Assembly (NCBI RefSeq): GCF_044647545.1
Contig: NZ_CP172818.1
DNA: 64,000 bases
Direction: 5' to 3' (one strand)
DNA from: Escherichia coli
GTDB lineage: Bacteria; Pseudomonadota; Gammaproteobacteria; Enterobacterales; Enterobacteriaceae
Both the position numbers and the translations under genes were made by a program. Below the pieces are notes generated by a model. That model worked only from the letters and a program-made list of their open reading frames with translations, was not told where the DNA came from and made no database searches. Positions 3,693 to 3,731 of this stretch are shown piece by piece. Every line of letters begins with the position of its first letter. Position 1 is the stretch's first letter.

Positions 3693-3731
3693 CCACGGAC
3701 CGCACTCTTATGTCAAGAGTGCGGTCCGTGG
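3693..3731. repeat. Perfect 17-bp inverted repeat with 5-nt spacer (ccacggaccgcactctt atgtc aagagtgcggtccgtgg)
   Basis: Read directly from sequence; arms are exact reverse complements; no flanking T-run on either strand. Confidence 0.9.

What the first reader, a model, noticed from the sequence alone, without database searches (positions are those of the whole stretch)
3693..3731. Perfect 17-bp inverted repeat in the AT-rich region upstream of the receptor pseudogene
ccacggaccgcactctt atgtc aagagtgcggtccgtgg has exactly complementary GC-rich arms and a 5-nt spacer. No T-run follows on either strand, so it is not a canonical intrinsic terminator. A palindrome this long and perfect in otherwise AT-rich, apparently non-coding DNA suggests a dimeric protein-binding site, a recombination site or a structured RNA processing site. 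The only ORF across it (3649..3831) is low-complexity and probably not real.
Basis: seen in the sequence. Interest (0 to 1): 0.5.

Follow-up and report, generated by a model that had tools for sequence, protein, structure and literature searches.

The report
Hairpin ending an unannotated E. coli RNA
The perfect palindrome is real and unique to one E. coli locus, and published RNA-end maps show it folds into the hairpin that ends an abundant unannotated minus-strand RNA, a known kind of element and not a protein-binding or recombination site.

Summary
The palindrome is real. It is an 18-bp perfect stem (3692-3732) with a 5-nt loop, and it is the longest perfect inverted repeat in the window. 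The window is the E. coli cobU / CP4-44 junction. The palindrome lies 206 bp upstream of the IS2-split receptor pseudogene yoeA, inside the annotated minus-strand pseudogene yoeH. It is single-copy: 2211 of 5426 complete E. coli genomes carry it, always at this locus. It was absent from phage, viral and other-genus loci, so it is not REP/BIME. Published K-12 data, mapped onto the window, explain it. Term-seq and RNAtag-seq place strong minus-strand RNA 3' ends at 3697/3696 and 3686, at the 3' foot of the hairpin. A sigma-70 promoter reported by Shimada et al. matches 3888->3859 and would start that RNA about 160 nt upstream. A plus-strand antisense RNA overlaps it, and RNase III products captured by p19 map to 3716-3738. 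The best reading is a U-tract-less 3'-terminal stem-loop that defines and stabilises the end of an unannotated non-coding RNA. Whether it terminates transcription, blocks exonucleases or is cut by RNase III is unresolved. It is a new member of a known kind, of modest interest.

The parts
3692..3732 (.). Perfect 18-bp inverted repeat with a 5-nt spacer. On the minus-strand RNA it gives 19 pairs with a 3-nt loop and a predicted energy of about -36.6 kcal/mol.
3859..3888 (-). Sigma-70 promoter TTTTCA-18-TATAAT for the minus-strand ('yoeH') transcript. It lies back to back with the receptor promoter. The start site near 3852 is inferred, not mapped.
   Evidence: The scan scores it 10 of 12. The same hexamers and spacing are listed as a constitutive RpoD promoter for yoeH, with an H-NS site, in Shimada 2014 PMC3946193.
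3686..3852 (-). Inferred non-coding RNA of about 156-167 nt that ends in the hairpin. It is not annotated as an RNA gene and matches no Rfam family.
   Evidence: Promoter; 3' ends; fold z-score -6.0; no Rfam match.
3696..3697 (-). Dominant published RNA 3' end (MG1655 2068394 and 2068393), 4-5 nt inside the 3' arm of the stem.
   Evidence: Adams 2021 Term-seq lists an 'orphan' 3' end with scores 122542 and 280326. The TRS paper's supplement lists the neighbouring position.
3686..3686 (-). Second published RNA 3' end (MG1655 2068382/2068383), 6-7 nt after the stem.
   Evidence: TRS supplement; its table shows this hairpin with an energy of -36.6 kcal/mol.
3716..3738 (.). The 21-22 nt RNase III product duplex captured by p19. 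It covers the right arm plus 7 nt and is formed by plus- and minus-strand transcripts.
   Evidence: Huang 2020 PMC7373196 supplement: AGUGCGGUCCGUGGAUACAAC(C) with about 3000 reads on the plus strand, UGUAUCCACGGACCGCACUCU with about 330 on the minus strand, cluster 131, matched to Lybecker dsRNA MS-230.
3565..3723 (-). MG1655 pseudogene annotation yoeH (b4641). Its translation contains in-frame stops.
3733..3762 (+). CA-rich tract (AUACAACCAGAGACCGACUGACAC) and a small hairpin just 3' of the palindrome on the plus strand. This is a possible Rho loading region or iRAP region, which is inference only.
   Evidence: about 28.5% of iRAPs share a CA-rich motif
3846..3902 (.). Overlapping Fur-box-like sites. 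The best match to the 19-mer consensus in the whole window is at 3884-3902 (15 of 19). The sites cover both divergent promoters.
   Evidence: [quoted passage not shown] The link of this receptor to hma is from my memory only.
3938..4243 (+). First fragment of the TonB-dependent receptor pseudogene yoeA, cut by IS2 at 4244.

Best explanation
The palindrome works at the RNA level. It is the 3'-terminal stem-loop of an abundant, unannotated, non-coding minus-strand transcript (the 'yoeH' RNA). That RNA starts at a sigma-70 promoter placed back to back with the receptor (yoeA) promoter and runs about 160 nt into the hairpin.

The very stable, U-tract-less helix fixes and protects the RNA's steady-state 3' end. 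It does so either by stopping 3'-to-5' exonucleases that trim longer transcripts or by weak hairpin-driven termination.

Because the repeat is perfect, the same helix forms in a plus-strand antisense RNA crossing the site. The two transcripts pair, and RNase III cleaves the duplex here.

Shown by published data mapped onto the window: the 3' ends, the RNase III products, and RNA polymerase binding at the promoter region. Inferred: the start site, the RNA length, and the way the 3' end is made.
For: The window is 99.8-100% identical to K-12 and O157 here, so K-12 data transfer.

Term-seq gives a strong orphan minus-strand 3' end at MG1655 2068394 (window 3697) in at least two table entries. RNAtag-seq/TRS gives minus-strand 3' ends at window 3696 and 3686 and prints this hairpin as the structure upstream. 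Its authors note premature termination or processing within yoeH.

The promoter TTTTCA-18-TATAAT at 3888->3859 was found by my scan and is listed independently for yoeH by Shimada 2014.

p19-captured RNase III duplexes sit on the right arm. An antisense RNA to yoeH is seen only in an rnc mutant.

The only common allele, G3721A, occurs in 436 genomes. It keeps a G-U pair in the minus-strand helix (-36.6 to -34.6 kcal/mol) and opens a C-A mismatch in the plus-strand helix (-36.1 to -29.4).

Stem-loops without a U-tract at steady-state 3' ends are an established class (Dar and Sorek 2018).
Against: The minus-strand start site was not retrieved, so the RNA length is inferred.

The 100 nt downstream on the minus strand is G-rich (11 C against 24 G). 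That is not the C>G pattern of a Rho loading site. I found no entry for this site outside supplementary file 1 of the Term-seq paper, so nothing I retrieved links it to Rho.

The main 3' end lies 4-5 nt inside the stem, which neither simple termination nor an exonuclease stall predicts well.

Minus-strand transcription continues past the hairpin, with further 3' ends at window 3379 and 3116. It is therefore not a complete stop.

There is no covariation evidence: the locus is confined to E. coli at 98% identity or more, and the one SNP is a single event.
Confidence: 0.7

Rival explanations
1. RNase III processing site. The 3' end at 3697/3696 is made by RNase III cutting either the 18-bp hairpin itself (13 nt from the loop on the 3' arm) or the sense/antisense duplex in 21-22 nt steps. 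On this reading the element is mainly a decay or processing site, not an end-protecting structure.
For: p19-captured RNase III products lie at 3716-3738. The next 21-nt step on the minus strand would cut near 3695, within 1-2 nt of the mapped ends (my arithmetic). The antisense RNA is visible only in an rnc mutant.
Against: The p19 method cannot report intramolecular hairpin cleavage. An 18-bp stem is short for E. coli RNase III. A second 3' end at 3686 lies outside the helix. No rnc-mutant 3'-end data for this site were retrievable.
Confidence: 0.2
2. Barrier or Rho-linked terminator for plus-strand transcription. It would keep upstream antisense or pervasive transcripts from reading into the iron-regulated receptor promoter, and it may be part of the published aptamer iRAP#6850.
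For: Magan 2019 describe an RNA of about 150-200 nt antisense to yoeH that ends at iRAP#6850. It lengthens to about 700 nt with bicyclomycin. A CA-rich tract follows the hairpin on the plus strand, and about 28.5% of iRAPs share a CA-rich motif.
Against: The coordinates of iRAP#6850 could not be obtained. No plus-strand 3' end at window 3703-3802 appears in the wild-type Term-seq or TRS tables. Read-through to about 700 nt with bicyclomycin shows that the hairpin alone does not stop RNA polymerase.
Confidence: 0.3
3. DNA-level site: an operator for a dimeric regulator, or a cruciform.
For: It has perfect two-fold symmetry and lies about 130 bp from divergent promoters. An H-NS site is reported in the spacer.
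Against: A 41-bp fully perfect palindrome is much longer than typical operators. No regulator gene is adjacent. No related half-site occurs elsewhere in the window or genome. The common allele G3721A breaks the DNA symmetry yet persists in 436 genomes.
Confidence: 0.05
4. Recombination site or end of a mobile element (attC-like, IS200/IS605-type hairpin, dif-like, or oriT).
For: It lies at the edge of the cryptic prophage CP4-44, in DNA riddled with insertion sequences. IS3 and IS1 have inserted inside it in some lineages.
Against: It is single-copy with no partner site. No recombinase or relaxase gene is next to it. It is absent from phages, viral contigs and plasmids apart from copies of this same locus. 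Strain breakpoints at 3725 and about 3702 are ordinary IS ends, not site-specific junctions.
Confidence: 0.04
5. Functionless relic: the promoter and terminator of a lost gene, or a quasi-palindrome made perfect by template switching. On this reading the abundant RNA is only a by-product of a strong promoter plus a stable hairpin.
For: The region is decayed horizontally acquired DNA with pseudogenes yoeG and yoeH, an IS4 fragment and a cbi fragment. It is lost or truncated in over half of E. coli genomes. It has no homolog outside E. coli.
Against: This is compatible with the best explanation for what the hairpin does. It disputes only whether that matters to the cell. A yoeH deletion was reported to raise ofloxacin tolerance, which is weak and indirect.
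Confidence: 0.5

Closest known systems
U-tract-less 3'-terminal protective stem-loops of E. coli transcripts (Dar and Sorek 2018, NAR, PMC6061677)
   Same: A stable GC-rich stem-loop sits immediately at a precise steady-state RNA 3' end with no U-rich tail. Its energy is comparable to or stronger than that of intrinsic terminators.
   Different: The downstream minus-strand sequence is G-rich, not C-rich. Rho and exonuclease dependence are not shown for this site. The stem is unusually long and perfect, and the main 3' end lies inside the helix.
Canonical intrinsic (Rho-independent) terminator
   Same: A GC-rich hairpin with an RNA 3' end within a few nucleotides of it.
   Different: There is no U-tract on either strand. 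T-rich sequence lies on the wrong (5') side on the plus strand, and A-rich sequence follows on the minus strand.
REP/BIME extragenic palindromes
   Same: A palindrome outside functional genes that can stabilise upstream RNA.
   Different: It is single-copy, not one of hundreds of copies, and has no sequence resemblance to the REP consensus.
RNase III-cleaved sense/antisense RNA pairs (Lybecker 2014; Huang 2020; Magan 2019 iRAP#6850 locus)
   Same: This locus is itself listed in those data sets as dsRNA MS-230 and p19 cluster 131.
   Different: Those studies treat the locus as an overlapping transcript pair and do not describe the palindrome. Its relation to iRAP#6850 is unknown.

Membership tests
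Canonical intrinsic terminator | GC-rich stem-loop | tested here: met
   18-19 bp stem at about -36 kcal/mol
Canonical intrinsic terminator | U-tract (about 5 or more U within 8 nt) directly after the stem | tested here: not met
   The tails are AUACAACC on the plus strand and AAAACGGA on the minus strand. The terminator scan does not call the site.
U-tract-less protective 3' stem-loop (Rho-dependent-type terminus) | Steady-state RNA 3' end at or just after a stable stem-loop | tested here: met
   Published 3' ends at window 3697, 3696 and 3686 on the minus strand, mapped here
U-tract-less protective 3' stem-loop (Rho-dependent-type terminus) | C>G (rut-like) sequence downstream | tested here: not met
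   Minus strand: 2 C against 9 G in 30 nt, and 11 C against 24 G in 100 nt. Plus strand: only 9 C against 7 G in 30 nt.
U-tract-less protective 3' stem-loop (Rho-dependent-type terminus) | Read-through with bicyclomycin, and longer tails in pnp or rnb mutants | not testable with these tools
   Bicyclomycin sensitivity is reported only for the plus-strand antisense RNA. I retrieved no such data for the minus-strand end.
REP/BIME | Many dispersed copies per genome | tested here: not met
   One locus per genome in 5426 genomes. The two places per genome are the palindrome matching itself on both strands.
REP/BIME | REP consensus sequence | tested here: not met
   The sequence read bears no resemblance to the REP consensus as I recall it.
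RNase III sense/antisense dsRNA substrate | Both strands transcribed, with 21-22 nt duplex products carrying 2-nt 3' overhangs | tested here: met
   Published p19 reads: plus strand 3718-3738 and minus strand 3716-3736. The antisense RNA is stabilised in an rnc mutant.
Curated RNA families (Rfam 15) | Match to any covariance model | tested here: not met
   In 1-12000 at E<=1 the only match is IS102/IsrC at 6619-6822.
Recombination site / mobile-element end | Partner copy and an adjacent recombinase, or presence at element junctions in other genomes | tested here: not met
Palindromic operator of a dimeric regulator | A cognate protein that binds the site | not testable with these tools
   No adjacent regulator gene and no binding data found.
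Protein-coding sequence | An ORF with homologs beyond the locus | tested here: not met
   The 60-aa ORF is found only in E. coli at 92% identity or more. The yoeH translation has in-frame stops.

The most novel reading that the evidence does not exclude
The minus-strand RNA of about 160 nt that ends in this hairpin may be a genuine, so far unannotated regulatory small RNA. It is transcribed divergently from the TonB-dependent (probably haem) receptor gene, from a promoter buried in the same array of Fur-box-like sites. If so, it would be a second iron-responsive RNA of E. coli, present in uropathogenic and enterohaemorrhagic strains, with the perfect hairpin as its stabilising 3' end.
Probability: 0.12. 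Interest if true: 0.55.

Novelty: new member of a known kind. Interest (0 to 1): 0.3.

Why it matters
The work explains an eye-catching palindrome as an RNA 3'-end structure and rules out a repeat family, a recombination site and a coding region.

It also flags an abundant RNA in the best-studied bacterium that sits in published 3'-end tables as 'orphan' or 'internal to pseudogene yoeH' and has no RNA annotation.

The RNA shares its control region with a receptor gene that is intact in B2 strains (Nissle 1917, U13A). A test for iron regulation or a trans-acting role is therefore cheap and could be informative. Otherwise it is a clear example of a U-tract-less terminal hairpin in decaying horizontally acquired DNA.

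Tried and rejected
**Searches for other copies**
- I searched the window with up to 3 mismatches, 5426 E. coli genomes, plasmids and phages, viral contigs and metagenome contigs.
- Only this locus was found. Three unrelated metagenome hairpins share the inner 11-bp arms: two (L045, L059) are ordinary terminators with T-runs, and the third (L057) has no T-run.

**Comparison with receptor homologs**
- Sixteen receptor homologs at 65-78% identity came from other Enterobacterales (Kluyvera, Citrobacter, Raoultella, Enterobacter, Klebsiella, Providencia, Izhakiella and an unnamed Enterobacteriaceae isolate), plus one from Thalassomonas at 34%.
- None shares the upstream region, so no covariation test was possible.

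**Tests for a decayed gene**
- Six-frame translations of 2740-3940 against NCBIfam gave nothing.
- The three minus-strand frames, joined into one query, gave no hit in the large protein database. That query, full of X characters, also missed known identical ORFs, so this negative is technically weak.

**Literature look-ups that failed**
- The coordinates of iRAP#6850 and the Thomason dRNA-seq start sites were not retrievable; the papers or supplements are not held.
- Cappable-seq and SMRT-Cappable-seq supplements had no entry for the site.
- RNase III cleavage-map and Rho 3'-end supplements are not held.
- No paper prints the palindrome sequence in its main text.

**Identity of the receptor**
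- Naming the receptor as Hma (c2482) of CFT073 rests on my memory. Database names say only 'TonB-dependent receptor', and no paper links yoeA and hma.

**Strain breakpoints**
- The apparent homology breakpoint inside the palindrome in some strains is an IS3 insertion plus deletion, not a site-specific junction.

Full report
**Observation**

The neighbouring t3692 and a3732 also pair, so the stem is 18 bp with a 5-nt spacer. On the minus-strand RNA a G-U pair closes a 19th pair and leaves a 3-nt loop.

It is the longest perfect inverted repeat in the 64-kb window. Only two other loci have perfect hairpins of 12 bp or more (14305-14333 and 24974-25006), and both are shorter. By simple arithmetic the expected number of such an 18-bp hairpin per window is about 6e-6.

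No T-run follows on either strand. The hairpin is 59% G+C in flanks of 36%.

**Context**

The window is the E. coli cobT-cobS-cobU / cryptic prophage CP4-44 junction. Window coordinate plus 2,064,697 gives the MG1655 NC_000913.3 coordinate, so the palindrome is 2068390-2068428.

The receptor pseudogene is yoeA. It starts at 3938 and is split by IS2 at 4244. The same gene is an intact 715-aa TonB-dependent receptor in B2 strains such as Nissle 1917 and U13A. I believe this is the haem receptor Hma (c2482) of CFT073, but that is recall and I could not confirm it.

MG1655 annotates a minus-strand pseudogene yoeH at window 3565-3723 that overlaps the palindrome. Its translation contains in-frame stops.

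The 60-aa plus-strand ORF across the palindrome exists only as E. coli 'hypothetical protein' entries at 92% identity or more. Six-frame searches found no protein family (the second is technically weak).

**Copy number and distribution**

The full palindrome is present in 2211 of 5426 complete E. coli genomes, always once and always here. The 'two places per genome' are the palindrome matching itself on both strands.

It was not found in phage records or viral contigs. It was found on plasmids only as copies of this same locus.

Of 23 metagenome matches to the inner arms, 20 are this locus and 3 are unrelated hairpins, two of them ordinary terminators with T-runs.

Receptor homologs in eight other Enterobacterales lineages (65-78% identity) do not share the upstream region. 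It is therefore not a REP/BIME-type repeat and has no partner site.

Strain breakpoints inside it are IS3 (at 3725) and IS1 (at about 3702) insertions. On one plasmid another insertion sequence abuts at 3760.

**Published transcript evidence for K-12**

K-12 is 99.8-100% identical to the window here.

1. Adams et al. 2021 Term-seq lists a strong 'orphan' minus-strand 3' end at 2068394 (window 3697). Its scores of 122,542 and 280,326 are comparable to those of well-expressed genes nearby.
2. The TRS analysis of RNAtag-seq data lists minus-strand 3' ends at 2068393 and 2068382/3 (window 3696 and 3686). It prints this hairpin (-36.6 kcal/mol) as the structure upstream. The text says yoeH may undergo premature termination or processing.
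3. Shimada et al. 2014 list a constitutive RpoD promoter TTTTCA-18-TATAAT for yoeH, with an H-NS site. My scan finds exactly these hexamers at 3888->3859 on the minus strand. A start near 3852 would give an RNA of about 156-167 nt. That RNA folds with a z-score of -6.0 and matches no Rfam family.
4. Magan et al. 2019 show that an RNA of about 150-200 nt antisense to yoeH (plus strand) is visible only in an RNase III mutant. It ends at the RNA-polymerase aptamer iRAP#6850 and lengthens to about 700 nt with bicyclomycin.
5. Huang et al. 2020 captured 21-22 nt RNase III product duplexes with p19 at window 3716-3738. That is the right arm plus 7 nt, with about 3000 plus-strand and about 330 minus-strand reads. 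They match it to Lybecker's dsRNA MS-230, window 3283-3784.

No plus-strand 3' end near the palindrome appears in the wild-type tables.

**Interpretation**

The element acts as an RNA helix. Its best-supported role is the 3'-terminal stem-loop of the abundant minus-strand RNA. It belongs to the class of U-tract-less terminal hairpins that Dar and Sorek described at precise steady-state 3' ends.

How the end is made is unresolved.

- The sequence downstream on the minus strand is G-rich, not C-rich.
- I retrieved no Rho data for this end.
- The main end lies 4-5 nt inside the stem.
- Transcription partly continues to 3' ends at window 3379 and 3116.

An RNase III cut is a serious alternative for the 3697/3696 end. 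It could fall in the hairpin, 13 nt from the loop, or in the sense/antisense duplex one 21-nt step beyond the captured product.

On the plus strand the hairpin is followed by a CA-rich tract. It may belong to the Rho-dependent iRAP element, but I could not obtain that element's coordinates.

**Variation**

There are essentially two alleles. The perfect palindrome is one, and G3721A is the other, in 436 genomes.

The variant keeps the minus-strand helix as a G-U pair (-36.6 to -34.6 kcal/mol). It puts a C-A mismatch in the plus-strand helix (-36.1 to -29.4). This favours the minus-strand RNA as the relevant form, but it is a single event.

**Control region**

The best match to the Fur-box consensus in the whole window is at 3884-3902 (15 of 19). 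Overlapping 14-of-19 matches lie at 3878 and 3846. The array covers both the receptor promoter and the divergent minus-strand promoter.

[quoted passage not shown] Iron control of the minus-strand RNA is therefore plausible but untested.

**Rejected readings**

- Operator: the palindrome is too long and too perfect, there is no regulator gene nearby, and the asymmetric allele persists.
- Recombination site or mobile-element end: it is single-copy, with no recombinase and no junction use.
- Coding region: the ORF is an orphan and the annotation is a pseudogene.
- REP/BIME: it is single-copy.

**Verdict**

This is a real, non-random feature. It is a new member of a known kind and is already visible in published supplementary tables, although no paper's main text prints the sequence.

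Interest is modest. The open question is whether the abundant orphan RNA it terminates does anything. One report of raised ofloxacin tolerance in a yoeH knock-out is indirect.

Noticed in passing
window 6619-6822 (+): Full-length Rfam match to IS102 RNA (RF00124, 252.6 bits). This corresponds to the small RNA IsrC annotated just upstream of flu (Ag43) in MG1655.
   Followed up: partly
window 3846-3902: A cluster of overlapping Fur-box-like sites, including the best consensus match in the whole window (15 of 19 at 3884-3902). It covers both the receptor promoter and the divergent minus-strand promoter.
   Followed up: partly
L003 6243-6330; L034 1510-1600; L032 3940-4001: Independent insertion-sequence events hit this short region in other strains. 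IS3 inserted inside the right arm (window 3725) with loss of the receptor side. IS1 inserted inside the left arm (about window 3702). Another IS end abuts at window 3760 on an IncF/IncI plasmid that carries the intact receptor.
   Followed up: partly
window 2656/2657: The window lacks the IS5 (insH6) copy that MG1655 and MC1000 carry here, although it shares their IS2 insertion in yoeA.
   Followed up: no
window 2400-2760 (-): Relics next to cobU: a fragment of a cobalamin biosynthesis gene and a fragment of an IS4-family transposase with an internal stop. They mark the old deletion and insertion that created this junction.
   Followed up: no
window 3379 and 3116 (-): Further published minus-strand RNA 3' ends (MG1655 2068076 and 2067813) lie downstream of the hairpin. 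Some transcription therefore reads through into yoeG.
   Followed up: no
window 3251-3280: The palindromic hexamer TGTACA is read as a -35 on both strands. My scan calls a plus-strand promoter with an extended -10, and Shimada 2014 call a minus-strand promoter for yoeG. The left edge of Lybecker's dsRNA MS-230 (window 3283) lies just downstream.
   Followed up: no
window 3749-3762 and 3768-3788: Two further small hairpins (5-bp stems) lie between the palindrome and the divergent promoters, inside the inferred minus-strand RNA.
   Followed up: no
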